Part shown: piece after piece, positions 1 through 61,422 of the stretch | How positions within the stretch are numbered: position 1 is the first letter of the stretch | Layout: each line of letters begins with the position of its first letter | DNA from: Amoebophrya sp. A120 | Lineage: Eukaryota > Protista > Dinoflagellata | DNA length: 64,000 nucleotides | Assembly (NCBI GenBank): GCA_905178155.1 | Contig: CAJINV010000002.1 | Location: 10,078,528-10,142,527 of the forward strand | Direction of reading: 5' to 3' | Position numbers and translations under genes: made by a program | The notes under the pieces: generated by a model | What the model was told of the DNA's origin: nothing | Database searches by the model: none | Seen by the model: only the letters and a program-made list of their open reading frames with translations

Positions 1-236
1 GTCTGGGTCTGGAAACTTGTGATGCTGAGTGGCGTAGCATGAGGAGGCCACAAGTGCTGGCTCAGCATGACAAATTTCTGAGCTTGTAGGTGTTACCCAT
101 TCTGCATGACAAACTGCGTCTCCGCATGAGAGAAAAATGCGGCTCTTGGGCAACGTGCATGACAGCTTTAAGAGTCATGCCAGACAAGCATGACAAACAT
201 GCATATTTCCAGACCCAGACATTTTAACATTTGATA
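1..236. mobile_element. Introner (family B), 5' end truncated by window edge
   Basis: Starts inside TIR GTCTGGGTCTGGAA and ends TTCCAGACCCAGACATTTTAACATTTGATA. Interior closely matches 18213-18464. Confidence 0.9.
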
Positions 237-352
237 AGGCGGAGCGGGAGGCGAAAGAGGAGACGCGGAGCAGCAGGCGCGGAACCCCCGCGTTGGCGCC
301 ACGCGCAACCCCGGATGAGGACGTTTTGTCTTCTAGCGACGAGAACAAATGA
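237..352 (+). CDS. Last exon of an upstream gene (unknown product)
   Basis: GC-rich open frame directly after the introner: AEREAKEETRSSRRGTPALAPRATPDEDVLSSSDENK*, TGA at 350-352. Confidence 0.55.
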
Positions 353-1342: not shown

Positions 1343-3891
1343 ATGGGTGAAGTTGTCCAAAGCTGTTTCCGCGGGCTTTGCCAAGCTGTTTGCGGCACGG
1401 AGATGGATGCTTCGGCCCCTTCGTCTGGTGCTAATGCGCCGAACGTCAAGTCGCTACGGGAGCTCGTTCACGAAGAAGTGAACAGTATGAAGACTGCCAC
1501 GTCGCCCGACCGGCGGCTACGCGCAACAAGCGACCGGGCGTCGCCTTCAGACGGCGGAAGGCCCGATCTGCCGAGCAGTCCTGCCGCAGGTATCAACAGT
1601 GTAGTACATGACAGCCAGGCGCCGTCGACTGCGAGTTCGCCTGAGAAGGCGGGTGACAGGAATATGATCCCAGGATCAAGTAGGAACTCGGTCAATCAGG
1701 CGATCAGCCTACAGTCGCTGCTTCTAAACCAGTGTCCGTCCCGCAAGCTGGATAGGTTCTACGATGTGACGAAGGCGGACAAGATTGGGGAGGGCGCGTT
1801 CGGGGAGGTGTTCAAGGTGCGGCACAAAATCACCGACCAGCTGCGAGTGGTGAAACGAATCAAATTGCAGGAGGAAGAGGACCTGTCCCAGGTGGCCAAG
1901 GAGCTTATGCAGCTTCGCAAATTATATGTGTTTTTTCTTGTCGCTCTAGCGTCTGCGTGCACGACTATCCGCAGGCAGTTCATGGCTTTTCTGCATGAGG
2001 TTTTTGCGATAAGCAGCCGTACTTTGCTCGCGTGGCTTAAGTGCGTCGAAAGGCTGCAGCTGCTGCATGAATATGAAATGTGAAGCCAAATCTTCTACAA
2101 CTAAAGAAACCACATATAATTTGTAGTGCATAGAGCTCTCCGTGGTGCTGAACCTGGACCACCCAAACGTGATCAAATGTTTTGACTGGTTCGAGGAGGA
2201 GCGCGTGCTGTACATCGTGTTCGAGCTGTGCGAGGGCGGGGAGTTGGTGGAGTTGCTGGTGCAGAACAAAACCTCCCACAACGCCGACAAAATGTTCGTA
2301 GAGGAGGACCAGCGACCCGCGCTGACCGACGTCATGGCACAGATCTTCACCGGCGTTGCCTACTGCCACGCGCTGCACATCGTGCACCGGGACCTGAAAC
2401 TTGAGAACTGCCTGCTGAAAAAGCGGTGGCGCCGCTCGTCCGTCACTTCTTCCTCGTCAGCAACGGGGGGCGCGAGCAGTGGTAGTGCTACACTACACAA
2501 TGCAGCTTCTGCTGCGTCCTCTTCTAGACCAGCCACGGTCGTGGCGAAAGACGAAAGAAGAGACAGCGCTGTCGGCACGTCGGGGCGGGTGGAACCGAGT
2601 TATACAGCGACTACCAATACCGTGAAGATCATCGACTTCGGGTTATCGGCGATCAATGCGAAGGGGAAAAAGAAGCTGAAGGCGCAACTAGGAACCCCGT
2701 TCTTCATCGCGCCGGAAGTGATCAACACCAAAGTGGACTACGGCGAGAAGTGCGACATCTGGGCGTGTGGCGTGATGCTGTACATCATGTTGACGGGCCA
2801 GCACCCGTTCTACACGCGGGAGTGCAACGCGAAGGGGAACCACAACCGGAAAAAGGGCACACAAAACCTGTTCCGCCGGGTCCAGTCCGAGCCGCCGCAC
2901 GCGAAACCGATGGAGGTGCTTTCTAGCGCGGCTCGGGCCCTGATAACCGCCTGCCTGCAAAAGGACCAGACGTTGCGCCCGAGCGCGGAGGAGTGCCTGC
3001 GCCACGAGTTCTTCGAGCGCGCGCGCCGGGCTTCGGCGGTGTCGCTGAACAGCAGTGGTGGGTCCTCGTCGCTGAGTCCGGGGATCATGCGGCGCGGGAC
3101 AACCAACAACTTCTCCGCCAACACGTGGGCACGCAACGCGATCGAGTTTTTACGCGCCGACAAGTTTTCCCGCATTTTTTTCGTGATCGCGGCCCACCAG
3201 GCCGCGCGAAAGGACGTCGAGGAGCTGCAGGAGGCCTTTCTGGCGGTGGACCAGGACCGGTCGGGTGTCTTGTCCAAGGCGGAGCTGCAGGAGGCGCTGT
3301 TTTTGGAGGACACCACGATCACGATGAGCGACACCGAGTTTGACGCGTTGTTTGAACAGCTGGACTATGGATTGCAAACATGTCTGGGTCTGGAAGAATA
3401 CAAACTTGCGATGCGCATTTCAGAACACAGAAAAAGCTCTCATGCATAGGTAGCAAAAGCTGCCCACTTTCTGTCACCAAAGTGGAGGATTTGTGATGCG
3501 GATTCGGCATTGCGGAAGCTTCTCGAAACCTGTGATGCTAGAGCTTCCATGCCAGACCTTCTGTGTCATGCAAAAACAGCATGACTCTTCACTTCCAGAC
3601 CCAGACATATTTGCATTTGATATGGACGCGGACGGCACGGGCACGGTCACCTACACCGAGTGGCTCGCCTCCGTCTTCGAAAGGAGCTTACTGAAGCAGG
3701 AAGAAACCATCCAGAAAGCCTTCCAGTATTTCGATCTGGACGCGTCCGGGGAAATCTCCTTTGAGGAGCTGTCCACGGTGTTGGGAAACGACGAGGAGGA
3801 GGCGGGGCGGATCCTGAAAAAGTTGGACACCAACAAAAGCAACAGCGTCTGCTACGAAGAGTTTAAGAAATTCGTTCTGGAATTGGCATGA
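1343..3891 (+). CDS. Calcium-dependent protein kinase (CDPK); exons 1343-1905, 2138-3365, 3628-3891
   Basis: Kinase motifs GEGAFG, HRDLKLEN, DFG and APE, then four EF hands (DQDRSGVLSKAE, DADGTGTVTYTE, DLDASGEISFEE, DTNKSNSVCYEE). N-terminal MG..C suggests acylation. Removing two introners gives KELSVVLNLDHP and QLDADGTG. Confidence 0.93.
1906..2132. mobile_element. Introner, TIR TATGCA..CAAATTATATGTG
   Basis: Direct repeat GAGCT/GAGCT. Ends CACATATAATTTGTAGTGCATA. Removal restores the kinase frame. Confidence 0.85.
3366..3622. mobile_element. Introner family A, forward orientation
   Basis: Direct repeat TGGAC/TGGAC. TGTCTGGGTCTGGAA...TTCCAGACCCAGACA TIRs. Splits an EF hand. Confidence 0.93.
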
Positions 3892-7652: not shown

Positions 7653-10147
7653 ATGAGGCAGAAGCGCATGGAAGATCCCGCCGAGGTGCGGAGGAGGGAA
7701 GCGCTCGTACTGGCGGCAGCAAAAAGGATCGGCATTGACATAGCCACGGAAAAGCACATGATGTACCATTTTCTTTTACCGGAAGCTCACTGACATGCTT
7801 TTTTCATCGTTATATGAATGTCCACCTCGATCAATTGCAACAGTTGCAGCAGTTAATCTGCGAGCGAAAACAAGTGACTGCATTTTCAATGTAATGATCT
7901 TCAACATAGGTGGATCGCCGAATTCGCTTCACAAGCAGAGCTCCCACCGGAATGGCGAGAATTTCAAACTGAAGATGGGGAGACAGCGTATATCAACTTC
8001 TTCTTCTTTTTCCACTATTTTCGAGTTTCGTTTTGTTTTTTGCCGACAATACGACAAGATCCATTGCAGAGGTGTCTGTACCTGATGAGGCTGCGATGGT
8101 GCAGCTCGGTGAGGAAATGAAACAAAAGCAAAAGTAGAAATTTATCAAACCGAACAGGTATTACCACCCGGGGACCAAGTGCTTGTCCAAGACACACCCC
8201 GTGCTCGACAAATTCGAGGATTTTATCGTGCAGCAGCGGGATTTCGCAAAACACCACGACCCGGTGATCGCAACCATGTCTACCGACCAATTAGCAGCCA
8301 AGCTGGGCGTAGTACTGGACGGTGTGCTTAACCGATACAACAAAGGTACGAGTTTTTATTACGTTGTGAAGTTTTTTCGATATGATAGATCAGGCACGAA
8401 AAAAGCACCGTTGTTTTGCCAGCGCTGCCGCTGTGGGTGTGCATGTTGCTCCTTCTACGATCCGGACGCTGTGGTGGATGACCAGCAAGTGCTAGGTCTC
8501 TATGGTACTGCGAAAAAATAACACAGGTCTCCCGCCAGTCACACCAGAGATCGTGGAGAGCGTTGCCCTTTACTTCTGCGTACCAACCGAGAAGGAGCAC
8601 GGATTGGCACTGCAGATCCGAATGGCCTTAGAGGCGTACGTTGAGACGCAATACACATTAACGCTCATCACCCGGGACCTTGTGGACCCAATGGTAAATG
8701 AGATACGTGGTGGACGTGAGTTCTTGACTACAGTGCATTTTTTTTTCCTCATTCGCATTAGGACGCGACTGTGTATAAACTACTAAATCTTTTCGCCAAC
8801 TCATTATCCAGGGTTTCCTGAAGAACATGCGAAAGGACATTATCTCGCGTTGCGTGCTGCAGAAGGAGGATCCCGTGCTGATGTGCCAGGAGTGCGAGGA
8901 GCGGTCGGCGAAGCTGAAATGCGAGCAGTGCAAGGACTTTTTCTGCATGGATTGCTTTCAGCTCACGCACGCTATCGAATGTAAAAGTGTCTGGGTCTGG
9001 AAGAGTCATGCTGTTTTTGCATGACATAGAAGGTCTGACATGGACGCTCTAGCATTACAGGTTTCGAGAAGCTGCCGCAATGCCAAATTCGCATGACAAA
9101 TCTCTCACTTTGGTGGCAGAAAGCGGGCAGCTTTTGCTACCCATGCATGAGAGATTTTTCTGTGTTTTGAAATGCGCATCACAAGTTTGTATTCTTCCAG
9201 ACCCAGACATTTTTACATTTGATACACGCCACGGGGAAGCGAAAAAGCCACAAAACGCAGAACGTGGAGCAGATCGTCTGCGATCTGTGCGACAAGGTGC
9301 ACGCCGTCACCGTGTCTCTGGAGAACCACCAGCGCTTTTGCGACAATTGCTACCAGAAGAAGAGAAGAGACATGGTGGGACACAGAATGCGCGTTATCAA
9401 GGTATTTGGTACTTTGAGTTGTTTGATGGTGACGATGTGGGTAGTTCTTGTTCCGGTTATTTTTTACCGTAGTAGGGCTTAGCGCCGTCTGATCTGCCAC
9501 GAGCTCTGTTGCAGAATTGGAAAGTTACAACTGTCAAAGGACTTTGTGAGTACGTCGCGCGTGAACTTCTACCCGATCAATCACAAATAAAACAGGGCCT
9601 CCCGTGCTCCGAGTGCGCAGCGAACTTTGACGCGCAGGACATTAATGACACCGGGGAGAGCAATAACGACGATCCAGAAGACGACGCGAAATTTGGAAAC
9701 CGACAAGTGAAGCGAAAGCAGGCGGCGTCCATTTTGTGCGAGGACTGCTGCGATCTCTTCTGCTACGAATGCTTCGTGGAGATGCACAGAAAAGTACGAA
9801 TATCTAAATATGGTTGATTCTTTATTTTTGTATGACTTTCAGTTTCAAGTACTGTTGTGACTCCTAGCTATGCCGAAACCACGGGAAATTCGTTCTGTAA
9901 AAAGATGAAATTGAAAATTTTATCACAGGGCAAGCGGCTCCACCACGTGAGCCTGAGTATAAACGACGAGGGCCAGCTGATACGGCAGGGCGACGTGTTG
10001 CCACCGGAGGAGGGGCAGGCGCACCTCGACCGAGCACGGCTGACCGCCGAGGGCGGTGCCTACGTCGCGTTCCGGGACGACCAATTTAACACGTATTGGT
10101 ACCACTTCCGGGACAAAATCATCACTCACCAAAATCCGTACATGTGA
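7653..10147 (+). CDS. WW-domain + B-box zinc-finger protein (CEP164-like N-terminal WW, ZBBX-like B-boxes); multi-exon
   Basis: Spliced model reads IGIDIATEKHMMWIAEFASQAELPPEWREFQTEDGETAYYH (WW), CQECEERSAKLKCEQCKDFFCMDCFQLTH plus two further Cys/His clusters, and a C-terminal WW-like YWYH..NP. GT-AG introns include 7763-7909, 7988-8157, 8346-8526 and 9402-9595, plus one introner. Start codon uncertain. Confidence 0.72.
8973..9224. mobile_element. Introner family A, reverse orientation
   Basis: Direct repeat CACGC/CACGC. Interior is the reverse complement of 3366-3622. Removal gives LTHATGKRK. Confidence 0.93.
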
Positions 10148-11659: not shown

Positions 11660-14316
11660 ATGGTTCTCACTGTCGGTTGGTTTGCTCCATTTTTCTCGAA
11701 CAGCGGGTATGGGTCGGAAGCGATTTCCTACTTGCTCGCCTTCCAGAAGTACCTGCCCCACATTCCCGTCGCGATTCGGCAGTTTGCCGAGCCGGAAGAC
11801 ATGCAGTGGTCCAATCACAACCTTCCCCCCGAGTTGCGTCGCATCCTTCGCGGCCTCACCAAAAAGTCCTTCGCGGACACCACACGTGTGGTGCGGAACA
11901 GAGCAATGTCGGCGAGCGAGGCGGCGCAGCAGGCAGGCAGCGATAATGTTGACCCTGCGAATAAACACTTGCCCCAGGTCGCCGCGGGGAGCGGTAGTGC
12001 CGCCGAGGGGAATAATAATAAAGCGGTTCTGACGGGACGAGATCGAGAACCTCTGCATCACCAGCAAGATAATTATGCCGGCGGAGTTGTAGAGAAAGGA
12101 GAATTGGCGGCGATCTGCCACTCCACACCGGACGTGTGGCACGAGGACGGGGCGTTTGGCTGGGGAAATTTGCAGACCCGTTGTCCCCCGCCGTCGGCAA
12201 AGATCCGCATCGGCCGCACGATGTTTGAGACGGACACGCTGCCTAGCTCGTGGGTGCCGCGGCTGGAGAAGATGGACTACATTCTCGTGCCGACCAAGTT
12301 CCACTTCGACATTTGGCGCAAGAAGATCCACGAGTACAAGCTGCGGGTGCTGCACGAGGCGGTGGACACAGAATTTTTCTCCCCCACCGGGACCCCCGTG
12401 GTGCCCGTTTTGTCGCACCGCGCGAACCACCGCCTGTTCAACCGGTACGTGGGGCGGCTGGTGCGCACACTGCCCGTGAACCGCAACCACCCGTCGGCCG
12501 GGAAGAAGACGGCGCCGGCCATCGACCCGAAAACCGGGCGGCTGGCGCAACACGTGAAGAAGGCGGTGCCAGAGAAGTACAGCCGGCACAAGTTCGGCGC
12601 CAAGGCGGGCGAGCTGCACCACCACGAGCAGCGGAAGCTGCAGCAGCGGCGCTACTTCGACGACGACTACGCCGGGGATCTGGAGGAGGACGTGTTCCAC
12701 CAACCCCCGGAGGCGAAAACCGCCGCGGCGCACCAGCGCATTCAGCAGCAGCCCAAATTTTTCCTCGCGATCGGGAAATGGGAGAAGCGCAAGGGGTTTG
12801 ACGTGCTGATCAAAGCCTTTCAGGAAGAGTTCCGGTCGGACGTGGAGGTGTTTCTGCTGATCAAAACGAGCCTGTTCCACAACACAAGGAGGCAAATTCT
12901 GCAGGAGGCCTTCGGAAAGGAGTACGACGCCGAGAAATTAGACCGGTACCAGCACGTCATCATCGACGAGACACCGCTGTCGTCGGTGGAGATGGTGCAG
13001 GTATAATTGGGTTCAGAAGTTTAGCAGGGACGTTGTTCTTCGGGATTTTCTTCAAAGGTGAAGTTCAGAAACAAATACGGGGACGAGATTACTGAAAATC
13101 TAAAGGAGAAATATGAAGATGTATCACAAGAACTCAGATGATGTACTTGCACCCTGTTGAATGCTGCTCTTCTTTTTCTTCAACATCTATTCAAAAAATC
13201 TTCAAAACTCAATCTGTACCAGCTCTATCGTGAAGCCACCGCGGTGGTGCTTCCGAGTCGGGGCGAGGGTTGGGGCCGGGGACACGCAGAAGCGATGTCT
13301 ATGGCCAAGCCTCTCATCGCCGTGAACTGGTCGGGGCCCAGCGAGTACATGCGAGACGACAATTCCTTAGCAGTCAACTACACGCTGGTTCGTCAACTGG
13401 ACCCGAATACTATCCTGTGCAAAAGTATCGTACTGCTCGTACTAATTGCAATCATGCATGACAGATCTTGTTTCTTAGCGAAATCAGCATTACAAATTTC
13501 ATTTTTCCTTCTGGAAAAATTTGTATTGCGATTTATACTAGTACGATACTTTTGCAATGCATAAATGCCGGCATGTACTCAGGCGACGGGCACTGGGCGG
13601 AGCCCTCTGTTTCCTCCATCAAATGTAAAAATGTCTGGGTCTGGAAGAATGCAACTTGTAATGCGTATTTCAGAACACAGAAAAGTCTCTCATGCATACG
13701 TAGCAAAAGCTCCCGCTTTTTGTCAGCAAAATAGGGGACTTGTCATGCGGATTCGGCATTGCGGAAGGTTCTCGAAAACTGTGATGCTAGAGCTTCCATG
13801 CCAGACCTTCTGTGTCATGCAAAAACAGCATGACTCTTCCAGACCCAGACATTTTTACAATCCATATCCTCCCTGCGACAGCAAATGCGCTGGGTGCTGA
13901 ATCACGAGGAGGAGGCGAAGCGTATGGGAGCGGCGTGTGGGGTGGTCGCGGGGTGGTAGTTTATTTTGGCACGGATTCTACTGCCGTTTCGGTTGAGAAA
14001 TAGGATTTGCATGCTTCTTTCGTTCATTGCTTGGTCCATCTGGCTGGCAAAAGTAGTATGTAATGTGTCGTTGAAAAAAAAAATCTGAATTATGCGAACT
14101 ACAAGCCAATGGCTATCTTCACGACCACCTCCAGCTCCGCTCTGCATAAAAGAAATCGGCATGAACGCACGGCGCTTGATGGTTGAACAGTATTCGTTGT
14201 CGGAAATATCGAAGCAGCTCGACAAACTACTCACGGAACTAAATTCGAAAATCGACGAGCGCAACGCCAAGATCCCCGTGAACATCACGAGACTGAGGGA
14301 TCGGGACGAATTGTAA
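11660..14316 (+). CDS. Glycosyltransferase family 4 (group 1), ER-type C-terminus RDEL; 5' end uncertain
   Basis: WFAPFFSNSGYGSEA, IGRTMFETD, KWEKRKGFDVL, VLPSRGEGWGR..AEAM and HWAEPS. GT-AG intron 13001-13222 and three introners. Ends ...RDRDEL*. Confidence 0.87.
13411..13563. mobile_element. Short introner, TIR TGCAAAAGTATCGTAC family
   Basis: Direct repeat AATAC/AATGC. Ends GTACGATACTTTTGCAATGCATA. Same TIR as 59389-59535. Confidence 0.85.
13617..13866. mobile_element. Introner family A, forward (5' end CAT instead of TAT)
   Basis: Direct repeat TCCTC/TCCTC. Near-identical reverse complement of 23320-23569. Confidence 0.92.
13923..14148. mobile_element. Degenerate introner
   Basis: TATGGGAGCGG..GGTGGTCG / CGACCACC..CCGCTCTGCATA imperfect inverted repeat. 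Direct repeat eroded (AAGCG/AAAGA). Removal keeps the frame (EEEAK-R/E-IGMNAR). Confidence 0.7.
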
Positions 14317-36985: not shown

Positions 36986-37360
36986 GAACAGCAACAAGAG
37001 CAAACAGCAAATAGCACTGCGTCTTTGCAAGACGAGCAAAGGTTCGCTATTATTTAACAACCAAGAAGAGGACTACATCCCAGGGACGGGTATGCGGCGT
37101 AAGGTATAAGTTGCAGGGTTGTAGTGTAACTGATTTTTCAATAAGTACATCGGCGGGTTGTCTAGAAGTACTGATCCGTTTGGTGTGGAAGTAGCGCCGT
37201 TTGACTTGACTTGATTGCAAGATTACACTTGTAGTTGTGTAATTTATTATCGACGGTCACAGTTCAGCAGGCGCCCTACTTTGTGCTTTATTTCGGGGTA
37301 CTAGCAGCTACAAAATATACCCTCTCTTCGTCTCAGTCCTGAATATTCTGATTATAACAT

Positions 37361-48300: not shown

Positions 48301-51300
48301 AGCCCCCACCCCATATCGGAAACGGAAGATGCGCGAATTTGTGATGCTGTATTTGAGTACACAAATCGACTTGTATTGCTAGAAGGCCAAGAGACGAAGC
48401 TGCGGCATAAATTGCAGGTAATCTGTCACGCTGTTTCCCAATTCCAGTTGCCTCCTGTCATCCTGGAGCAGCAAGGCTCTCCCACGCTGGGCAGCACTAC
48501 AGTCCGCATATTTTACCTTCTAGCATCACAAAGCTGATTTGTGACCACAAATCTGCATCGCAGCTTTCCGCTTTGATATGGGGAAGGGGCATTTTTCATT
48601 GTAATAGGATGACAGCGACAAAAGGCAGTCGACCCTGAACATGGTGCTGTTCGACTCGCTCAAGGAAGACTGCGGCGTTATGGCCCGCGATCAGGTGCTA
48701 CAATCTCAAGAACCGTTGCAACGAACGCGGAAAGGGAAATTTGTGATGCCAAACCCGCTTGATCTTCAAGACAGGCACCGCAGCTCTTCGTGTAGCATGA
48801 TGGCAGATTTGGTGGACTAGAATCTGGTGCTCCTTCGTGGTTCCGAAATTTCTCAGTATGAGGATAGCTGAGCGGCCTTCCCGGCATTTCATGCAACAGA
48901 AATGATCCTCGAAAGATTGCGACATAAAGTTGAGGTTGTACCACCTGAGCGGGGGATAGGCGTGACTATGGTCTTCTGCATCCATCCCGACCGCAGCACG
49001 TACCAGGCCTCCAAAACTTCGCTGCAGATGGCGCAGAGATGCAAGAAAATACAGAGAAAAAAACGCATCCGCAGGCTGGTGAGGGTTCTTATTTACCTTT
49101 TATCTTTGTGATAGATGAAGATATAAAAAGACGAGAGCTGCACCTGCACCAGATGCAATACTCAACACCTCGATCATAATATTTTCACAATCAGCCGACC
49201 ACGATGCGTTTTGAAAAAAAAAAAAGCGCTTCTTCTACACTTGAAGGTGAGCAGCTCCAGCGGGAATGGCGGGTCCGCTTTGATTTCGGAAATGGACCAA
49301 AAGATTGCGGAACTCCGGCAGTCAGAGATACAGGAAACGCTATGAAATGTAAAAATGTCTGGGTCTGGAAGAGGAGAAGTTTGTCATGCACATTTTCCAT
49401 GATCCATGATATCTGTGTTGTATGCCATAGCATCACAGATTTTTTGAGCGCCCAGCGACGCGCATCCTGCATAACAAATTCCCTCTCTGCGTAGCCAAAT
49501 TTGACTCCTCTTGCTGCTCATGCAATACAAATCTTTTTAGCATTGAAATGCAGCATCACAAGCTGCATTCTTCCAGACCCAGACATTTTTGCAGTTCATA
49601 AACGCAGCAACTGCGCAAAAAGCAGGTTTTTCTCGAGAAGGAGCGGTCGGAGTATCAAATGTAAAAATGTCTGGGTCTGGAAACTTGTGATGCTAAAATG
49701 TGCATGATGAAAACATTTCCGAATGCAGTCCGGCATGACAACTTCTCAAAACGCTTGCTCATAGGCAATCCGCATGAGAAATTGCGTTTTTGCATGACAA
49801 AAGAGACTGCGACTTGTGTTGGTTATGCAATACAGATTTTCTAGGTATGGAAAGCTAGCATTACAAGTCCCAACCTTCCAGACTCAGAGATTTTTACAAT
49901 CCATATGGAGGACCGGATGCTGATTGACTCGCTCGAGCGAAAAAACATCTGCCTGCAGCAGATGGTCGAGGAGCACGCGCAAATCAAGACGCACTTGATC
50001 GAGAAGGCGGAGCAGATGAAAATCGACTACGAAAAACGCATCCGCGAGATGGAGCAGGAGCTGGCAGTGTGTAAAACCGAGCTTCGGGAGTACAAAAATG
50101 GTGTTCCACCCGGCGGGTCAATTTTTACGAACAACATCAACAACCCGGCTTCTACTTCAAAAACATCTCACCTTCTTGCGGCAAATCCAAAAGGAGGTGG
50201 CCTCCACAGGGGTGCGACACGTACCCGCGAGGATGTTGAACCAGATCTGTGTACTAGTGGTTCTACTCCAAAAGACGAGCAAGATCCTGTTGTTGTTGAC
50301 GAAAAGAATCCCATTAAGCTGCCGTCCGCCAGCCAGAGTTCCTCGAAGTTGAGCACCAAGTCCGGCACAGAGAAGTCCAGTACCAGTTCAGTCGAACAAG
50401 GGGCGTTTTCGGGTGGAAGATCGGCAGCAACGGGCGCCGCCACCGCGGGCGGTAGGAGCGGCAGCTACAACTACAACATTCAACAACAAGACCAGGGCGC
50501 GACGTTTGCGCCCCTTTCTCGTCGCAGCGGGGCAGCAGGAGCAAGCGGTAGTAGAGAAGGAGGCACTAGTAGTGCCAGTGGTAATGCGTATAATCCAGGA
50601 GGAGCACCATCCGAAATGATTTCGAACGGTAATTTCGCAGCGACGTATTCGAGCGTGCTTGCGGGAATGCAGAGATCCCTCGGCAACGAGACGGTGCAGC
50701 TGCAAGGATTGCGAGCACTCCTAAAACTAGTGTCCGCGTCTCCGGGGGCGAATGCTGGAATTGACAGCAGCAGCAGCAGCAGTGGTTCTACTACGGGTCA
50801 TGATGCCGGTGAACGCGATCTGCAAGATCGTCATGGTGTTCCTACGAGAAAAGGTGGTCCTGTTGAGGCAATCAAAACGAGGTCTGCGTGCGCGGAACTG
50901 CTGAATGCAGAGTACGGGTTGTCGGTACACCAGGATGACGAGGAGCAAAACGGGTTTTTCCCGAGTAGTACATCCGACGGCTTCTACCTGGCTGAATACA
51001 ACGCGGGGACAAGCGCCGGCGCCACTGCGTCGGGCGGTACCACGTCCTCGCGAGCACGGCAGCAGGCTGCGGGGGGAAGCACTATTGTTAAACCGATGCA
51101 AGAGACGGACACGGTGATGCAAGTGATCCATACCACCATCCAAGCGCTTCGCTGTTTCCCGTTGGTCGCGAAGATCCAGCGCGACGTATCCTATTTAAAA
51201 ACGTCCCCACCCCATAGTTGTAATGCAAATCTGCATGTTGAAAATGTTTCTCATGCGGAGCCCCATGAGAAGCATTTTCCAATCGTGTTTCGCAATTTGT

Positions 51301-53451
51301 CATGCTCCAATCAGCATGGTATGCTAGATCTGTAATGCTGCTGAGCTAGCTCAAACAGCACTACACTACGAATCCAAATTTGTCATGCAAAACAGCCAAA
51401 ACTTGTGGATTTGTCTAGCCGATTCCCCATCTTGACTATGGTGTGGGGACGTTTTTACTCAGGATACGACGGTGCGCTGCTGCTCGCGGAGATCTGCAGC
51501 AGCGCGCGCGGCACGTGGGAGGGGGTGGAGGTGGAGCTGCACGGGAAAACCGCTGTTATTTCCAGTCCCAAAGTGCTGATTTTACAAGAGGTTGAGCGCA
51601 CGATTTTGCCCATGTTCGACAAGAAAGAGCTGTTTGGCAATGGTGGAGGGGTACTAGCGAACCTTCCGATACCAGAAAATCAGAACTGGGCGAGCAGCGG
51701 TAACCTACAAAACGGGGGTTCCGCGTCCTTGGCTTCTTCCTTCTCCTCGCAGTACCAGCAGGTGTGCGTTGCCGCGAGCCGGTTACTGGCGGTGCTGGGC
51801 CAGCGGGAACCGGAGCTGCAGACCGAGATCGGCCAGCTCGGGGCGATCGAGAAAATTGTGGGGGCCATGATGCTTTTCGATCGGGAACAACAAGAAGAAG
51901 GAAATATTTTGTCGCAGCAGAAGCTGGACCTGATTGTGCACGGTTGTTGGAGTTTGATGAATTTGTGCAACAAACATGCGGAGAACCAAGCTGTTTTCCG
52001 GGAGCTTGGCGGCATCGATATCCTGTTGCACCTCGTTGCCGAAGTTTCCGAGTTTCTTGCCGCGGAGCTCTCTGGCGGAAGAAGTGGTGGCGTGGACCGT
52101 ACTGTGAAAAGGCACAAAGACGGTGAGGTGGTCAAGCATGACCAACAGGACCACAACCACATCACGCTTGACGAAGACGATGTTTTGCTGCAGTGCAAAA
52201 ATGCCGGTGCCTACTTGTCCGGATGTATCGCTTCGGTGGTGGAGTCGTGTGCCGAAAACCAAGCGGAGTTTTTCCGCTCAGAAGGGATGGAGCATCTGGT
52301 AAAAGGGAATATAGAGTCCTTTAATTCAGCGTGTTGAAATAATAGTTGGCTTTCAGCCAAGTGCAGTACTAAATAAAGAATTCGAATGCAGGAGCAAGGC
52401 AGTACCACTACTAGCCTTCGTACAGTTCGTGACATAGCAAAAGGTATGGAATCTCCAACAGTCAAGTTTCACATCCAAACTTGTCCAGGTGACGCTCCTC
52501 TCTTGTGGGCTCGACTCCGCCGGTATTGTTAGCAACGTCTGCATTGCGATTGCGCACGCTTGTCACAAGAACAAAAACGCGAACCCGCAGCACCAGACGC
52601 CGCTGTTCAAGCTCGTGCTGGAAGCCTTGAAAAGTTTCCATCCCGAACATGGTGCTGTTGTGGGGAACGCCTGCCGGTGCGTGGCAACCTTGACGGAATC
52701 TTCTTTCGCACTGGGCAACGCCGCCAGTCCGTCGCCAACCAGAGGAGGTCCTCTAGCGAATTCGCATGGCAAACCGGGTGCGAGCAGAACCAGTGAGCAG
52801 GCAGAGAGCGCGGAACTACTGACAAATGTGTTTCCGGAATTGATCTTTACCCTGATCAAGATCATGAAGCGATTTTCCCACGACACAACCCTCAATACCA
52901 CGATCTTCTGGGCACTGGGAAACTTGGTCTGCAAGACACAGAAAAGTTTGATGTCAGCGCCTTCTGCATCTTCCGCTTCCGCGAGAATGTTCAAGCAAGC
53001 CCCGGTTTACATCCAGGAGCCTGACCTCGCCTACTTCGCGAGTCTGTTGCAAAAGGTCTGCCACAAGCGGGAGCAGCAAGAAGGACCGAACCTGAATCAG
53101 CAACAGGGCGATTCTCGAAACAAGGAAACTGGTGCAATCAAAGAGCAAGCAGGTTCATCTTCTTCGTCGGGAGCAGGGGGTCTTGACCCATTGCATCAAC
53201 TAGATCGGTTTGTCGAGTACTGCTGCCGGCTTTTGTCGGAACTCACCAAAGGACCGGCCTCCTCGTCGGAGAAGTGTCCGACGGCGATTCGCGAAACGCG
53301 GGTGCTGATGAAGCGGAACACGGAATTTGTGCAGCTGCTTGTGAAACTGCGGGAAAAGTACACGAACAGCGACAGCCCGCCGCGACCGAACTCGAAAGCG
53401 GTTTTAGTGTTGCCCAGGATCAAGGAACTCTACCAAAACTTGACGAAGTAG
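45322..53451 (+). CDS. Kinesin motor protein with coiled coil and C-terminal armadillo-like repeats; about 15 exons
   Basis: Spliced MSLYQTSSVGNNGDPPGGSASDVRVVVRIRP. P-loop FAYGQTGSGKSYT, switch I NSESSRSH, switch II LVDLAGSE and INVSLTHL. ARM-like LGAIEKIV...GCWSLMNLC...NQAVFRELGGIDIL. Ten introners. Junction across 47505-47809 unresolved. Confidence 0.88.
45344..45607. mobile_element. Introner, diverged family A, reverse (5' end TGT)
   Basis: Direct repeat TTCGT/TTCGT. CAGAC-type TIRs. Confidence 0.88.
45646..45883. mobile_element. Degenerate introner
   Basis: TATG..ACGCA..GATCCTC / GAGGATC..TGCGT..CATA residual inverted repeat. Direct repeat CGGTT/ACGTT. Removal joins the frame to VRVVVRIRP. 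Confidence 0.68.
46092..46303. mobile_element. Introner, TIR TATSCAAGARARAAACA
   Basis: Direct repeat AGTTT/AGTTT. Removal gives AQFDHVLD (kinesin FD motif). Confidence 0.85.
46755..47016. mobile_element. Introner family C, forward
   Basis: Direct repeat CGCCA/CGCCA. CAGAC-type TIRs. Confidence 0.92.
47075..47463. mobile_element. Long CAGAC-type introner (389 bp) with internal insertion
   Basis: Direct repeat AGGGA/AGGGA. Internal GC-rich segment with (ATG)n run. Confidence 0.9.
48286..48606. mobile_element. Introner family E (TIR ..GAAAAA.CCCCC.CCCCATATC)
   Basis: Direct repeat GGATG/GGATG. Homologous ends to 57955-58277. Confidence 0.88.
48679..48958. mobile_element. Introner, TIR TAT..CCCGC..TCAGGTG.TACAA.CTCAA
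   Basis: Direct repeat GGCGT/GGCGT. Removal gives DCGVTMVFCIHP. Confidence 0.88.
49341..49600. mobile_element. Introner family C (diverged), forward
   Basis: Direct repeat AACGC/AACGC. CAGAC-type TIRs. Confidence 0.9.
49653..49905. mobile_element. Introner, B-like CAGAC type
   Basis: Direct repeat CGGAG/TGGAG. Frame restored to EKERSEDRMLIDS. Confidence 0.9.
51187..51466. mobile_element. Introner family D, opposite orientation to 17640
   Basis: Direct repeat CGACG/CGACG. TIR AAAAACGTCCCCAC / GTGGGGACGTTTTT. Confidence 0.9.
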
Positions 53452-55767: not shown

Positions 55768-56166
55768 GCTTTACAAAATTCTTGATGAATACTTTTGATG
55801 TGCTGGCGGAGCTTTTCACTTTCGGGTCGTGACGTAAGTATTTGACTATGTATTCGTGTACTTCTACATCTAGTTGAAGTTCTTCAAGACAGTCACGCCG
55901 GATGCTGAAACAAAATGCGCGTTTGAACAGCTGCATTAAAGCAAAACTACTATGAGAGGTATGGGAATATATCAAACGAGAGGCATTCATCTGAGTTGTT
56001 GAAGTGGGAAACACATGGAATGGCCTCGGTAAGGAGGACTTTGCTATCGTTCATCTGAAGGCGTTTTCAGACGAGGCAAAATTGATGCGTGCCGAACGTT
56101 CTGCTGTGCAATAGACATCTGATTCTGAATACTTTTATACTTCGGAGGGAATTTTTGACCAACAAG

Positions 56167-59100
56167 ATGGCCACCGACGTGGCGATTCTGAGCGCGCTCG
56201 CGCAAGTGACGGACCAGGAGCTTCGTTATTTCGAACTCGTCACCCTTCGGTTCGGCGGCAAGCAGCGGAAAGTTTATCTTTGCATCGGGCGCCACGCGTT
56301 TTTTCTGGTGAAAAAGGACGTCAGCGCGTTGATCCAGGGGGGCGAGCTGTTTTACGCGTATTTGGAGGCGGTGGTGGTGGACAGTAATTCCAAATCCGAT
56401 TTGCTTTTGGTGCTGAACGACAACCGACCGGGGTTCTGGATCAGCCCAAACCTGTTCGTGCTCTCCTCCAAACGCTCTTCGTTGGTTATGGAATGGAAAT
56501 ATGTTTGGGTCTGGAAGAATGCAAGTTTGTCATGCTTGTCTGGCATGACTCGAGAATCTGTGTTGCATAGGCACGAAAAGGCCGACTTGCTTGTCATGCA
56601 AAAACGCAGGTTGCCATGCGGAATACGTAAGACATGGCAGCCAAAAGATTTGTCATGCATGGCTGCGTACTGCAGTGCGTCTATCATTCACTTTTAGCTA
56701 TACAAGTTTCCAGACCCAGACATTTTTACATCTGATATTGGTGCAGCATCTGCAATGCTGCTGGACGGTGGACTACATGTGGCGGTACGGCTTGGTGGCC
56801 AACTTTCCGAAGCGCGAGGCGGCGCTGACCTCCGACCTTTTCACCGGCGAGATCTGCATGCCGTTTCACGGCTACGCTAAGAACGAGTTTCAGTCCTACT
56901 CGTTTTTCCTGAAAGATTCCTTCGCCGAAGTCCCGTCAGTGCTTCAGGCGGAGAACACGGGACACTACTCGGACACGAAGCGCAAGGGCTTCGAGGTGAT
57001 CATCCACGTGCACGAGCCCGTGGAGATCAGCCTGCTGTCGAAGATGAACCGCGAGCACGTGCGGTGGGTGGCGTTGGAGTACAAGCAGATGCTCACGACG
57101 GACTCCGCGGAGCAGAACAGCAATAATCTGGTCTACTACGTCCTCCGCAACGCGAGCTACCTGAAGAAAATGAACCTCGCAGAGGACATCGCCATGTGGA
57201 TCGGTTGGGAGATGCTGGTGAAGACGGAGAAGTACGTGCTCATCGTCGTGGTCCTGCGTCGCCAGTATCTCCCCCCGCTGATGTCCGCGTGCCAGGACGT
57301 GGTCGTGATGTTCAAATCGCCGAACCTGGAGGCGGAAGCCATCAAGGCGCAGCAGGCCGGGAAGAAAAAAATCCCCAAATTCTACACCGACGAAGAGCTC
57401 TTGCTGGAGGCGCACCTGTATCAAGTGTAAAAATGTCTGGGTCTGGAAGAATGCGCGACTTGGCATGCTTCTCTGGCATGACTCTTAAATCTGTCATGCA
57501 GGCTAGTACCCAAGAGCCCCACTTTCCTGTCATGCAAAAACGCAGTTTGTCATGCAGAACAGGCAACACCTAGAAGCTCAGAAACTTGTCATGCTGAGCC
57601 AGCACTTATGGCTTCCTCATGATACGCCACCCAGCATCACAAGTTTCCAGACCCAGACATTTTTACATTTGATAACCTGATCGCGGACTCCTTGTCCCCA
57701 GTGGAAGACGAGTTTCCGGTGTACCGCGACATTGTGCAGGCCAAGCTGGACTCGTTGCGGTTCGACGAGGACGGGTATCGGTTTCTGGAGAACCACGTGA
57801 AGCTGCTGCCGAACAACGTGCGGGAGCAGGGGAAATCGTTCCTGAAGTCCATATTCCAACTCCTCGTTTCCGATGGCATGCTCGTGAACGGGGACCAGAT
57901 GCTGAATGACAGCATGTTCACCCTCGGGAAGCAGGAGAAGGACGACCGGTGGCATATTGTGAGGAAAAATCCCCCCTCCCCATATCGAAGACGGAATTTG
58001 TGTTGCTGTATTTGAGTACACAAATCACATCTGTCTTGCTAGAGTGGACGGCAGACCCATATCAAGCCTGAGCAGAGATGCTTTGACTTAGGCGCTTAGC
58101 ATGAGAAGCGTCCGTGATGTTGGCTCAACAGCATGACAAACCGCCTCCATGATGGGACGGAAGCTGCTGCCCTTGTCTTCTTGCAGCACAAACGTGATTT
58201 GTGACCTCAAATCAGCAACACAAATTTTCGAAAACCTACCTCTTCAATATGGGGAGGGGGGATTTTTCCTTGCGATATGGCAGGTGCTGCCCACCAAGGA
58301 CAACCCGCTGCTCTTCGCCGAGGAGCTGGTGGAGAAGGGCGAGGTATCAAATGTAGAAATGTCTGGGTCTGGAAGAATGCAACTTCTCATGCTAAAGTAA
58401 ATCTGAAGCATGCAAAAATCTGCGCTGCATGATTACCAAAAGTCGTCCAAGTTTGACCAAGTCGGGAGGCAGTTTCTCATGCAGGATAGGCATGAGAAAG
58501 ATCGCACAGAGTCTGTCATGCTAGGTCCTGCATTCCAGACCTCATGGGTCATGGAAAAGCTGCATGACAAGTCGCGAACTCTTCCAGACCCAGACACTTT
58601 TACATTTGATATGAGGGGCTGGAGAACAACGCGAAAGCGCAGCAAGGACAGACGTCCGCGGCGGCGAACGAGGCGCGGAACAACTGGAACAAGCGGGTCG
58701 CGCGGTACTTCGCCTACTGTCTCGACGGGGGGTTGTGTATAGAAAGAAAAAAGTTTGTCACAGTCATTAACCTGGAGATTTAGCATTACAAATTTTTTTA
58801 GCATCACAACTTTTGCTTGTATTGCAGAAACACAAAGGGAAATCTCCTATGAAGTTTGGCTGTGATGCATTTTTACGCATGACAGGCATTTTTTGTATTG
58901 CAAAAATGCCCATGAGTGATCGTGACGAACTTTTTTCTTTTGATATTGTGCCGCGCCTTCACACTGTACGACCTGATAGACGCGAAGGCGGGTCTTTCCG
59001 CCGATATCAACTGTAAAAATGTCTGAGTCTGGAAGGATGCGAACTTGTGATGCGCATTTCACAACACAGACAAAGCTCTCATGCATAGGCAGCAAAAGGC

Positions 59101-61422
59101 GCCCACTTCCTGTCACCAAAATGCGGGATTTGTCATGCGGATTAAGCAATGCGGAAGCTTCTCGAAATCTGTGATGCTAGGGCTTCCATGACAGACATTT
59201 TGTGTCATGCAAAAACAGCATGACGAAAGTCTGCATTTTTCCAGACCCAGACATTTTTACATTTGATAGCCGAGGCGCAGAAGCGAATCGGACGCATCAT
59301 CGACTACTTGCTCCACCTCCGGCCGACGGACATGAGCCGCCGCTATTTCGACGTGTCGATCGTGACGCAATTGCAGGAGTCGCTGGAATATCGTGTGCAA
59401 AAGTATCGTACTCGTAGTGCAATCATGAATTACAAATCTTTCTCTTAAGGTAATTAGCATTTATACAAATTTTATCCCTCATGCTGAGGGAATTTGTCAT
59501 GCATTTATACGAGTACGATACTTTTGCCGTTCATATGGAAAACTGGGAGTTCAACGAGCGGGTGATGCAGATTCTCCTCGAGTCCGACTACATTCGGAAA
59601 CTCTTCGGGCGCAGTCGAGAGAAGGAGTACAGTCAGTGCGTTGGGTATGGATGTGTCAGGATTGAAATCGACAAAGTTGAAATAAACTTGTAATGCATAA
59701 AATGGATGAAAGTTGTGACCCAGTTTCCAAGTGGCGCATGACAAATTTGGGTAGAGCCGAAATCCAGTTTGTCATGCTGTTTGCGTAAGGAGGACGCCAT
59801 TTGTCGTGCTACTTTAGCAGCTCAGTTTCTACCCCTCAACATGCTGGCTTACAAGCTGCCTCACTTGCCTACTCTGCAAGACAGGCACTCTGTGGGCTGC
59901 ATTTTATGCATGGCGTTGTGGTGCTTTCGGTGGGATGGACGTCCGGTGTTGCTTCGACACTCTTGTGTTGTTGCATTTGTGAATGCGAGGGCAGTGGTAG
60001 ACTGAGGTTGCTGGAGTTTTCCGTAAGGACACTCCAAGTTAATTTTTGACTACTTCGCTTCCTTGTGCCTCTGCTTTAGTGCTATTTTTGGCGCTTTGGC
60101 TTATAGGCGTCCCCCTCGCATCTCACCTCCAGGTCTTCGGGGACCCCACTTTTCCAAGGTTCTTGGTTGTGGATGGTTCCTTGAGGGCTTTGTGGCGTCT
60201 GGGTATCCTTTGTTGCATTTTATGCATGACAAACTATTTCAATTTCAACTTTGACGATTTCAATCCTGACACCCCCATATCGGGAGGTTGCTGGCCAACC
60301 CGATGATGTCCATCACGCTGAAGTCCTCGCTCTGTCGGCAAATCGTGAGCAATCCGCCCTTATGGATTGCAAATATGTCTGGGTCTGGAAACTTGTAATG
60401 CTAAAAGTGAATGATAGACGCGCCGCAATACTCAGCTATGCATGACAAATTTTGTGGCTGCCATGTCTTATGTATTCCGCATGGCAAACTGCCTTTTCGC
60501 ATGACATCTAAGAGGGCTCTTTCGTGCCTAGGCGACACAGATTCTCGAGTCATGCCAGACAAGCATGACAAACTTGCATTCTTCCAGACCCAGACACCTT
60601 TGCATTTGATAGCCGTCCCCCGACAACCAGGCGATCTTGGCGCCGGCGTTGGTGGACGTGCTGAAGAACACGACCTCCTACTACGTGCAGACCTGCGTCT
60701 GCGCGGCGTTGGTCGTCATGACGGCGGACAGCGACCAGGCGAAGACGCTGGTCATGGCGTGCGGGATCGCGCCGCTGATCCTCAAGATGGTGACCAGCCG
60801 GGACGACGATTTGGTGTATCACGCCCTCATGCTGGTCGTCAACCTGTCGAAGCACACGCACCACCGCGCGATCTTCGTGCAGTACGGGCTGCTGCCGATC
60901 CTATGCGACATTTTGTCCTCTTCCTACCACACGATCCAGTTCAAGGGGAAGATTTTACTGCAGCTCTGCGCGGTCATCGGCCAGTGCTGCAATGACGAGG
61001 AGTCGCGGAAGATCTTGACCAACAGCCCGCACGAGTTCACGCTGGACTGCCTCATGTTCGTGTTCGACGAGTGCCCGCCGCGGTCCGCGCTGGAGTGCAA
61101 AACGCTGTACTGCATGCGCATGTGCGCCATGAATAGCAACGACAAGAAGTACCGGGTCGGCCAGCACTGCTACCTGAAGTTGCTGGAAGAGCTCCAGGAC
61201 ACGGACGACATGGCGAAGTACCTCGACTTCGTCTACAACGCGTTGGGGTTTCTGCTCGTGATCGCAGAAAAGGTGGAGAACGCCGCGGCGCTGCAATCCA
61301 CAAACATCGTGGACATCTTGCAGCGGATCAAGGACGACTTGTACGACGTGGCTTCGGTTCAGGAGAAGGTGAAGGCGCTAGCGGACCTGATCCGGGCGCA
61401 AACACACCGGGAACAATTTTGA
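56167..61422 (+). CDS. Uncharacterised protein with C-terminal armadillo repeats; 10 exons separated by 9 introners
   Basis: Continuous frame from MATDVAILSALAQ after removing 9 introners. ARM-like AALVVMT...AKTLVMACGIAPLILKMV...LVVNLSK...AIFVQYGLLPIL. Confidence 0.82.
56487..56737. mobile_element. Introner family B2, reverse
   Basis: Direct repeat TTGGT/TTGGT. Reverse-complement homologue of 60361-60611. Confidence 0.92.
57419..57674. mobile_element. Introner family B, reverse
   Basis: Direct repeat ACCTG/ACCTG. Reverse complement of the 18213-type interior. Confidence 0.92.
57955..58277. mobile_element. Introner family E
   Basis: Direct repeat TGGCA/TGGCA. TIR GGAAAAATCCCCCCTCCCCATAT. 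Confidence 0.9.
58345..58611. mobile_element. Introner family C-like, reverse
   Basis: Direct repeat CGAGG/TGAGG. CAGAC-type TIRs. Can be spliced as GT-AG (58344-58615). Confidence 0.9.
58738..58945. mobile_element. Introner, TIR TAT..AAAGAAAAAAGTTYGTCAC
   Basis: Direct repeat TTGTG/TTGTG. Frame restored to GGLCRAFTLY. Confidence 0.88.
59005..59268. mobile_element. Introner family A, forward
   Basis: Direct repeat GCCGA/GCCGA. CAGAC-type TIRs. Confidence 0.92.
59389..59535. mobile_element. Short introner (147 bp), GCAAAAGTATCGTAC family
   Basis: Direct repeat TGGAA/TGGAA. TIR shared with 13411-13563. Confidence 0.88.
59646..60279. mobile_element. Long introner (634 bp), TIR GTGTCAGGATTGAAATCG.CAAAGTTGAAAT
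   Basis: Direct repeat TTGGG/TCGGG. Imperfect inverted repeat of about 60 bp. Frame restored to QCVGRLLANP. Confidence 0.87.
60361..60611. mobile_element. Introner family B2, forward
   Basis: Direct repeat GCCCT/GCCGT. CAGAC-type TIRs. Confidence 0.92.

What the first reader, a model, noticed from the sequence alone, without database searches (positions are those of the whole stretch)
1..60616. One grammar for 32 transposon-like non-canonical introns: 5-bp DR | TAT-IR ... IR-ATA | 5-bp DR
Seen: about ten unrelated TIR types share TAT...ATA termini and a 5-bp flanking duplication (two copies start CAT or TGT). All 31 complete copies interrupt coding sequence. Deleting the element plus one duplication restores the frame and conserved motifs (EF hand DADGTG, SEPQFVP, kinesin FDHV). 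For many, no register gives GT-AG: at TGGAC the options are TG-TA, GG-AT, GA-TG, AC-GG, CT-GA and TA-AC. Established: IR/DR introners with non-canonical ends were reported in Amoebophrya A25/A120 genomes (Farhat et al. 2021), with the removal mechanism unresolved as far as I know. Inference: these are MITEs of a 5-bp-TSD transposase, removed from pre-mRNA or DNA by machinery that reads the hairpin ends and the duplication rather than GT-AG.
Basis: partly seen in the sequence, partly recalled or inferred. Interest (0 to 1): 0.9.

Follow-up and report, generated by a model that had tools for sequence, protein, structure and literature searches.

The report
Known transposon introns, fixed splice ruler
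These are the already published hairpin-ended transposon introns of the marine algal parasite Amoebophrya A120; all ten copies checked are missing from likely-RNA assemblies together with exactly five extra bases, and they are likely cut at one fixed position (one base before the element, four after it) by a modified spliceosome, which would make an unsolved splicing mechanism directly testable.

Summary
Real, but mostly published. The window is Amoebophrya sp. A120. I find 30 complete elements plus one partial, not 32. Ten TIR types share TAT...ATA ends. The 5-bp duplication is exact in 23 and imperfect in 7. Farhat 2021 already reports the TAT-starting inverted repeats, 5-bp direct repeats and RNA-seq support, with the splice site left unknown.

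Added here: contigs of likely-RNA runs (one sample) skip 10 of 10 tested elements as length+5, and a likely-DNA run keeps them. Mismatched duplications show the upstream copy kept at positions 1, 2 and 4. One conserved enzyme from a related lineage points to the downstream copy at position 5, which gives a 1+4 register. The duplication need not match. Elements lie in both orientations. The 5' UA decays far less than the 3' end (1 vs 13). The types share an internal motif, so they are not unrelated. No transposase was found and lariats were not tested.

This scan reported the 1+4 register before, on other DNA of this genome.

The parts
1..234 (.). Partial type-A element (left end outside the window), right end ...TTTGATA
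   Evidence: 96% identical to a complete 252-nt element in L031
1906..2132 (+). Element type I, repeat GAGCT/GAGCT, in a kinase gene with EF hands; weak arms, no internal motif
   Evidence: not RNA-tested
3366..3622 (+). Type A, TGGAC/TGGAC, splits the EF-hand loop D^ADGTG
8973..9224 (+). Type A, CACGC/CACGC
13411..13563 (+). Type D, imperfect AATAC/AATGC (position 4); the A120 gene model and the A25 ortholog read T = upstream copy
13617..13866 (+). Type A starting CAT, TCCTC/TCCTC; gene model and A25 ortholog are colinear across it
17640..17918 (+). Type B, GAGGA/GAGGA, in an RPE65-family gene
18213..18464 (+). Type A, imperfect CAAAG/CGAAG (position 2)
18517..18778 (+). Type A, TCGGA/TCGGA, splits S^EPQFVP
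23320..23569 (+). Type A, TGTCG/TGTCG
23639..23903 (+). Type A, CCACA/CCACA
24122..24383 (+). Type A, GCAGA/GCAGA, in an importin-beta-like gene (weak Pfam hit)
40416..40802 (+). Element type J, decayed repeat TGATG/CAATG, weak arms; removal opens a 4,137-nt frame
   Evidence: not RNA-tested
45344..45607 (.). Type A starting TGT on +, TTCGT/TTCGT; host context unresolved (possibly non-coding)
46092..46303 (+). Type F, AGTTT/AGTTT, splits kinesin F^DHV
46755..47016 (+). Type A, CGCCA/CGCCA
47075..47463 (+). Type A with a ~130-nt internal insertion, AGGGA/AGGGA
48286..48606 (+). Type C, GGATG/GGATG
48679..48958 (+). Type H, GGCGT/GGCGT
49341..49600 (+). Type A, AACGC/AACGC
49653..49905 (+). Type A, imperfect CGGAG/TGGAG (position 1)
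51187..51466 (+). Type B, CGACG/CGACG; skipped as 285 nt in a likely-RNA contig
   Evidence: record 2
56487..56737 (+). Type A, TTGGT/TTGGT; skipped as 256 nt
   Evidence: 4 of 4 runs
57419..57674 (+). Type A, ACCTG/ACCTG; skipped as 261 nt
   Evidence: 4 of 4 runs
57955..58277 (+). Type C, TGGCA/TGGCA; skipped as 328 nt
   Evidence: 4 of 4 runs
58345..58611 (+). Type A, imperfect CGAGG/TGAGG; skipped as 272 nt, upstream base kept at position 1
   Evidence: joint 58340>58613
58738..58945 (+). Type E, TTGTG/TTGTG; skipped as 213 nt
59005..59268 (+). Type A, GCCGA/GCCGA; skipped as 269 nt
59389..59535 (+). Type D, TGGAA/TGGAA; skipped as 152 nt
59646..60279 (+). Type G with a ~320-nt internal insertion, imperfect TTGGG/TCGGG; skipped as 639 nt, upstream base kept at position 2
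   Evidence: joint 59642>60282
60361..60611 (+). Type A, imperfect GCCCT/GCCGT; skipped as 256 nt, upstream base kept at position 4, so the cut lies after position 4 or 5; predicted intron 60360-60615
   Evidence: joint 60359>60616

Best explanation
The elements are small non-autonomous TIR transposons of Amoebophrya A120, each flanked by a 5-bp repeat and missing from likely-RNA contigs as element+5 nt, and they are likely spliced out of pre-mRNA at a fixed register (1 nt before TAT, 4 nt after ATA) by a modified spliceosome that uses the element's inner hairpin in place of GT-AG. Steps: (1) a cut-and-paste transposase, not found here, inserted them in either orientation with a 5-bp duplication (anatomy shown, enzyme inferred). 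(2) They are transcribed with the host gene and removed with exactly one duplication's worth of bases (shown for 10 of 10 in contigs). (3) The 5' cut lies after position 4 or 5 of the upstream repeat (shown once in RNA contigs, once in a gene model); position 5 comes from the downstream copy (inferred from one conserved enzyme). The intron would then be N-UAU...AUA-NNNN. (4) The arm from about position 9 to 30 is predicted to pair and bring the ends together; the 5' UA falls on intron positions +2/+3, as in canonical GUA, and the first A of the final AUA would lie 7 nt from the 3' end as a candidate branch point (inferred). (5) Because the ruler removes 5 nt whatever the repeat's sequence, a 5-bp-duplicating transposon becomes a near-harmless intron. 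My odds per step: RNA-level 0.92, fixed 1+4 register 0.75, spliceosome as catalyst 0.6.
For: RNA-type contigs X1-X4 skip all 9 elements in 56400-60900 as length+5 in 4 of 4 runs, and X1 skips 51187 as 285 nt. X1 also skips a GT-AG intron (52299-52488) and has zero depth over 53705-56052, as RNA would. DNA-type run X6 runs through the junctions into the arms at depth 41-46, like unique DNA. Upstream base kept at positions 1, 2 and 4. The A120 gene model and the A25 ortholog both read T (upstream copy, position 4) at 13411. At L062:6513-6815, a dehydratase hitting PDB 2gn4 with repeat ATGCC/GTGCG, homologs have M (upstream, position 1) in 88 of 111 vs V in 1, and R (downstream, position 5) in 28 of 136 vs P in 0. 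In 384 TAT..ATA pairs picked without using the repeat, 269 have an exact 5-bp repeat, 2 an exact 4-bp one, and none 6 or 7. Orientation relative to the transcript is 35:35, 20:16, 8:12 and 7:10 in the four largest families. Terminal changes in the outer two bases: 1 at the 5' end vs 13 at the 3' end (p=0.002), or 2 vs 17 with less certain strands. U2, U4, U5 and U6 snRNAs and most spliceosome proteins are reported for A120, but U1 was not detected (PMC7789003). A strain with canonical introns has U1 (PMC12005148).
Against: No direct evidence for the catalyst: lariats, circles and snRNA sequences were not seen. Under the 1+4 register the first intron base is any nucleotide (GT in 64 of 205) and the 3' dinucleotide is any of 16; a spliceosome normally needs G at +1 and AG at the end (established knowledge). 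One 5' end reads CAT (13617), which puts C at +2, yet its gene model is spliced. The -7 A is not invariant (2-3 changes vs 9-11 at the last A), so the branch point is only suggestive. Position 5 rests on one indirect case from another lineage, searched with a query that itself carried R; a second attempt (L077 vs its A120 ortholog) gave neither residue. Position 4 rests on two cases. X1-X4 are one sample, contigs rather than reads, labelled RNA by guess, and contigs drop rare forms. 20 of 30 window elements were not RNA-tested.
Confidence: 0.5

Rival explanations
1. Same RNA-level removal and ruler, but by a separate non-spliceosomal machine: a hairpin-guided endonuclease plus ligase, as proposed for Euglena nonconventional introns that leave as circles.
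For: No G+1 or AG requirement. A strong inner stem is predicted in 26 of 30 window elements (mean pairing of positions 11-30 >=0.74). Euglena introns have paired motifs at fixed spacers from the cuts, and the authors favour non-spliceosomal factors (PMC12501133 passages). Farhat 2021 concludes the mechanism should be distinct.
Against: The strand-specific conservation falls on the bases that match canonical +2U/+3A. Terminal pairing is not predicted in 3 RNA-confirmed elements. U2/U4/U5/U6 and most spliceosome proteins are reported present. Fritillaria shows a spliceosome can adapt to non-GT-AG transposon introns (PMC11282704 passages; bioRxiv 10.1101/2025.08.15.670264 abstract).
Confidence: 0.28
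2. The register is not fixed: cuts slide within the duplication or differ between families, as Farhat 2021 drew them, and only the net loss of 5 nt is constant.
For: Seven of the 10 RNA-tested junctions have perfect repeats and say nothing on register. Mismatches are enriched for synonymous changes (21 of 36), which would fit both copies being used. Published text calls the splice sites variable.
Against: All 5 informative cases fit one register. Each mismatched junction shows a single form in 4 of 4 runs. Non-synonymous mismatches occur at positions 1 to 5. Synonymous enrichment is also expected if one copy is exonic. The 5'-specific UA conservation implies a fixed 5' geometry.
Confidence: 0.13
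3. The elements are removed from DNA (precise excision or programmed elimination in the feeding stage), and transcripts come from cleaned templates.
For: TIR and target-duplication anatomy. Only one DNA-type run was laid, stage unknown; only 15 of its 890 joints were listed and contigs drop rare forms.
Against: DNA-type contigs cross the junctions into the arms at full depth. An asymmetric 4+1 outcome and transcript-oriented end decay are not expected of a symmetric transposase reaction. No germline/soma split is known in this lineage (my knowledge).
Confidence: 0.04
4. The skips are reverse-transcriptase template switches across a strong hairpin between direct repeats, not splicing.
For: Strong hairpins with short direct repeats are the known setting for such artefacts (my knowledge). 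All RNA evidence here is cDNA-derived.
Against: A polymerase stalling at the stem base would have copied the downstream repeat, but the upstream base is seen at positions 1, 2 and 4. Retention breaks the frame in 30 of 30. Locus-specific element interiors have about zero depth (60024-60174). The A25 ortholog, 53-62% identical, is colinear across the junctions.
Confidence: 0.04

Closest known systems
Introner elements / non-canonical introns of Amoebophrya sp. A120 (Farhat et al. 2021, PMC7789003; Gozashti et al. 2025, PMC12130899)
   Same: Same organism (window exon 100% identical to a protein named A120). Published: IRs starting TAT + 7 nt + A-run, 3-5-nt direct repeats, a 5-bp example (Fig. 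S19 legend), RNA-seq-supported removal, hairpins, MITE resemblance, about 29,850 copies. Listed as TIR DNA, superfamily unknown (19 of 58 rows seen).
   Different: The papers call the splice sites variable or unknown, give repeats of 3-5 nt (automated TSD 2-5), and Farhat argues against general transposase mobilisation. Here: a 5-bp repeat throughout, a likely fixed 1+4 register, a repeat that need not match, both orientations, 5'-specific UA conservation, and a shared internal motif.
Euglena nonconventional introns (PMC12501133; reviewed in PMC11282704)
   Same: No GT-AG, terminal inverted motifs at fixed spacers from the cuts, direct repeats that hide the register, suspected MITE origin.
   Different: Different code (CD'G/CH'G, 3-nt and 5-6-nt spacers, purine at the downstream exon start) and reported circular products. 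Here TAT/ATA with 1- and 4-nt spacers and no exon-base preference inside the repeat; the product is unknown.
Fritillaria borealis non-canonical transposon-derived introns (via PMC11282704 and bioRxiv 10.1101/2025.08.15.670264)
   Same: MITE-derived introns with TIR and TSD removed without GT-AG; a spliceosome adapted to them is the published reading.
   Different: Those have preferred ends (AG-AC, AG-AT) and an exonic TAC. Here both boundary dinucleotides are free apart from U at +2, and U1 was not detected.
hAT5 transposons (5-bp TSD group of hAT; as cited in PMC12730594)
   Same: 5-bp duplication, TA-starting termini, and many short subterminal repeats (typical of hAT, my knowledge). One 8-bp duplication, the usual hAT length, at L064:6319-6598.
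   Different: No transposase was found or tested here; membership is only a lead from earlier scan notes.

Membership tests
Amoebophrya A120 introner elements | Located in the A120 genome | tested here: met
   100% identity over 447 aa to a protein named Amoebophrya sp. A120
Amoebophrya A120 introner elements | Inverted repeats starting TAT, then 7 variable nt, then an A-run | tested here: met
   TAT in 180/181 and 181/181 ends of a set selected for TAT..ATA; A at positions 11-13 in about 90%; published motif
Amoebophrya A120 introner elements | 3-5-nt direct repeat at the exon border | tested here: met
   5-bp repeat, exact in 23 of 30 window elements and 269 of 384 candidate pairs in related loci
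Amoebophrya A120 introner elements | Absent from transcripts, non-GT-AG borders | tested here: met
   10 of 10 tested are skipped in likely-RNA contigs; GT/GC-AG possible in only 2 of 30
MITE (non-autonomous TIR transposon) | Short, TIRs, constant-length TSD, multicopy, either orientation, no transposase | tested here: met
   longest stop-free frames in 9 long copies were 82-238 aa, not scanned against Pfam
MITE (non-autonomous TIR transposon) | Empty orthologous site holding one copy of the TSD | tested here: inconclusive
   Only protein-level colinearity with orthologs; no orthologous DNA was available
hAT5 transposons | Cognate hAT-family transposase between the same termini | tested here: inconclusive
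   No element longer than about 1.1 kb with a matching repeat in the window or in 614 kb of related loci; whole genome not held
U2-type spliceosomal introns | GT/GC...AG termini | tested here: not met
   2 of 30 in the window and 13 of 205 in loci in any register
U2-type spliceosomal introns | Lariat with a branch-point A; dependence on U2/U6 | not testable with these tools
   No raw reads of this strain mapped (X10, X11: 5 and 119 partial reads); only an indirect conservation signal
Euglena-type nonconventional introns | CD'G/CH'G motifs with 3-nt and 5-6-nt spacers | tested here: not met
   Ends are TAT/ATA with inferred 1- and 4-nt spacers
Euglena-type nonconventional introns | Release as full-length circles | not testable with these tools
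   Contigs only; no back-joint among the 10 joints listed

The most novel reading that the evidence does not exclude
Amoebophrya A120 runs a second splice code. A U1-less spliceosome measures a fixed 1+4 register from a transposon's own ends, reading N-UA at the 5' end and branching at an A seven bases from an arbitrary 3' end. Any insertion by a 5-bp-duplicating (hAT5-like) transposase thereby becomes a clean intron in either orientation, which would explain tens of thousands of intron gains in one lineage.
Probability: 0.4. Interest if true: 0.8.

Novelty: already known. Interest (0 to 1): 0.47.

Why it matters
The elements themselves are published. What remains open in print is where and how they are cut. 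A fixed register turns 'variable splice sites' into exact predictions: intron ends, a candidate branch A, and which bases should tolerate mutation. These can be tested with existing RNA-seq, lariat sequencing and snRNA sequences. It would also correct many annotated intron boundaries, and show how a splicing machine and a transposon family can fit so that exon insertions cost almost nothing.

Tried and rejected
No whole genome is held, and the metagenome loci could not be searched as a genome, so no genome-wide census or transposase hunt was possible. Including DNA-type run X6 flooded the joint table (15 of 890 shown), so elements 45344-49653 stayed untested. The TIR pattern found nothing in viral contigs. 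A search for orphan ends gave no long element with a matching repeat. A protein search for the L037 gene, which has mismatches at positions 4 and 5, found no homolog. The L077 ortholog has a third residue at the position-5 site. Exact look-up found the window ORF 4447-7018 absent and two locus ORFs present without names. A 42417-43266 candidate was rejected (2/5 repeat, weak arms). My by-eye reading of mutation direction in mismatched repeats gave no signal on register. The repeat shows no protosplice-like base preference (two flanking positions reach p=0.007 among 25 tested, not corrected). Literature searches showed no paper giving a fixed register for these introns. Roy et al. 2023 and Henriet et al. 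2019 were not read, and subscription papers are not covered. Supplement figures of Farhat 2021 (S14-S23) are pictures I could not see and may bear on the register; 39 of 58 A120 rows of the Gozashti table were not viewed.
Full report
OBSERVATION. A scan for inverted arms flanked by an exact 5-bp repeat, with TAT or ATA at one end, gave 23 elements with arm scores of 24-60; five local shuffles never exceeded 19 (one search is the version with no terminal requirement). Dropping the repeat requirement added seven with imperfect repeats. Eighteen complete copies are of one arm type and the other twelve fall in nine types. Removing element+5 nt gives the quoted motifs and long + strand frames in genes with kinase/EF-hand, RPE65, kinesin and ARM hits. 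Keeping the element breaks the called frame in 30 of 30. Element 45344 has no convincing host frame. GT/GC-AG is available in some register for 2 of 30.

IDENTITY. A window exon is 100% identical over 447 aa to a protein labelled Amoebophrya sp. A120. Farhat et al. 2021 (PMC7789003; I read the abstract, passages, parts 3 and 5 of the main section, and supplement passages and part 2) describe A120 introners with IRs starting TAT + 7 nt + an A-run, 3-5-nt direct repeats, a 5-bp example, RNA-seq support, undetected U1, and borders drawn as variable or unknown. Gozashti et al. 2025 (PMC12130899; passages and 19 of 58 table rows) class most of the families seen as TIR DNA of unknown superfamily. 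The system and most of the 'grammar' are therefore published.

TRANSPOSON ANATOMY IN A LARGER SAMPLE. A 20-nt arm pattern pulled 148 loci (614 kb, partly overlapping) from one metagenome assembly. It appears to be a different lineage: the one ortholog tested is 76% identical to A120. Of 384 TAT..ATA pairs picked without using the repeat, 269 have an exact 5-bp repeat, 49 match at 4 of 5 and 24 at 3 of 5. The remaining 42 are mostly inner or cross pairings. Exact repeats of 4, 6, 7 and 8 bp number 2, 0, 0 and 1. The repeat has no base preference once codon position is allowed for (n=181, p 0.2-0.9). Families sit in both orientations relative to the inferred transcript: 35:35, 20:16, 8:12, 7:10 (230 elements). 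The types are not unrelated. They share TAT-S, G9 and A11-13 and an internal GCAT-N-ACA-type motif: 113 hits in 8.5 kb of elements vs 7 in 55.5 kb outside, and a looser form in 366 of 370 elements. I read this as one transposon lineage with subterminal binding sites (inference). No autonomous copy was found.

REMOVAL. Contigs of four runs of one sample, labelled RNA by guess, skip all nine elements in 56400-60900, each as length+5, in 4 of 4 runs. One run also skips 51187 as 285 nt. They behave as RNA: a GT-AG intron is skipped and 53705-56052 has no cover. Run X6 covers intergenic DNA evenly, and its contigs cross the junctions into the arms at depth 41-46; only 15 of its 890 joints were listed, so rare empty sites are not excluded. 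Twenty window elements were not RNA-tested. The 2026 raw-read runs did not map usefully.

REGISTER. Imperfect repeats locate the cut. RNA-type contigs keep the upstream base at position 1 (58345), 2 (59646) and 4 (60361), so at 60361 the cut lies after position 4 or 5. At 13411 the A120 gene model and the A25 ortholog both read T, the upstream base at position 4. The window has no position-5 mismatch. In L062 an element with ATGCC/GTGCG interrupts a dehydratase (PDB 2gn4, MHGGEIFVPK). Among 150 homologs, 136 carried the motif: R precedes it in 28 and P in none; M lies two before in 88 of 111 and V in one. That fits upstream at 1 and downstream at 5, though it is indirect, from another lineage, and the query carried R. 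If one register holds, it is 1+4: the intron is N-UAU...AUA-NNNN. I had reached 'after 4 or 5' before opening earlier scan notes; the 1+4 reading and the UA/-7A idea came from them and prompted the later tests. Against: only five cases are informative, a second position-5 test was uninformative, and mismatches are often synonymous (21 of 36).

WHAT IS READ. The duplication is apparently not read. Where both flanking frames could be called independently (107 of 346 elements), a net loss equal to 5 mod 3 fits 80 of 85 with exact repeats, 12 of 12 with 4/5, 6 of 6 with 3/5 and 3 of 4 with 2/5. Folding predicts the inner arm (positions 11-30) paired in 26 of 30 elements, but the terminal three pairs are unlikely in eight, three of them RNA-confirmed. 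Among 34 candidates with one altered terminal triplet, 20 had a confident strand. Changes in the outer two bases were 1 at the 5' end and 13 at the 3' end (p=0.002); third-base changes were 4 and 2. With six more of less certain strand the outer count is 2 vs 17; eight were left out as low-scoring or unorientable. A symmetric transposase constraint does not predict this, and the changes do not follow one mutation direction. Under 1+4 the conserved UA is intron +2/+3, as in canonical GUA. The A at -7 changes less often than the A at -5 (2-3 vs 9-11), which is only suggestive.

MECHANISM. Best reading (0.5): a U1-less, relaxed spliceosome, with the element's stem juxtaposing the ends and a ruler setting both cuts. 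Fritillaria is the precedent (PMC11282704 passages; bioRxiv 10.1101/2025.08.15.670264 abstract only), and a canonical-intron Amoebophrya strain retains U1 (PMC12005148 passages). The main rival (0.28) is a Euglena-like separate machine (PMC12501133 passages), favoured by the free +1 base and free 3' dinucleotide. A sliding register (0.13), DNA elimination (0.04) and reverse-transcription artefact (0.04) fit less well. For the mobiliser, hAT5 (5-bp TSD, PMC12730594 passages) is a lead from earlier notes and is untested here.

VERDICT. Real and already described as a class in this genome. The useful addition is a likely fixed register with 5'-specific UA conservation. I found it in no paper (searches, open library only), but this scan has noted it on other pieces of the same genome. 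Interest 0.47.

Noticed in passing
L064:6319-6598: A type-B element with an exact 8-bp duplication (the usual hAT length); the 1+4 ruler would leave the + strand frame open with one extra codon. L035:8151-8478 and L004:2123-2341 have a 5-bp repeat offset by three extra bases on one side.
   Followed up: partly
L001-L148 vs window: The related assembly's elements are up to 97.7% identical to window elements although the one ortholog tested is 76% identical to A120. This suggests recent activity in both lineages or transfer between them; one protein pair only.
   Followed up: partly
L001-L148: Insertion phase is skewed: the repeat starts at codon position 3 in 96 of 196 (p=2e-5), which under the 1+4 register is a phase-0 excess like that of ordinary introns. 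The window shows no skew (9 of 30). Unexplained.
   Followed up: partly
window:47075-47463 and 59646-60279: Two elements carry internal insertions of about 130 and 320 nt; the longer is still removed cleanly as 639 nt.
   Followed up: partly
window:58344-58615: Under the 1+4 register this intron happens to be GT...AG, so some annotated 'canonical' introners may be chance products of the same ruler.
   Followed up: partly
window:27550-27750: An intergenic cluster of the internal motif next to an arm-like stretch, perhaps a decayed element; no blastn hit to the element set.
   Followed up: partly
window:18213, 49653, 58345, 59646: Four of the seven imperfect repeats differ by a CG to TG/CA change, as CpG methylation would give.
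   Followed up: no
window:1-62500: All identified genes lie on the + strand, matching the published unidirectional clusters; large ORFs at 30214-35136 and 37358-41886 have no Pfam hit.
   Followed up: no
window:53705-56052: An alpha-kinase gene (54122-54994) has no cover in run X1 while its neighbours do.
   Followed up: no
window:63197-63378: The CGGGTCCGG motif recurs at both ends of this stretch near the window end, perhaps a short repeat array.
   Followed up: no
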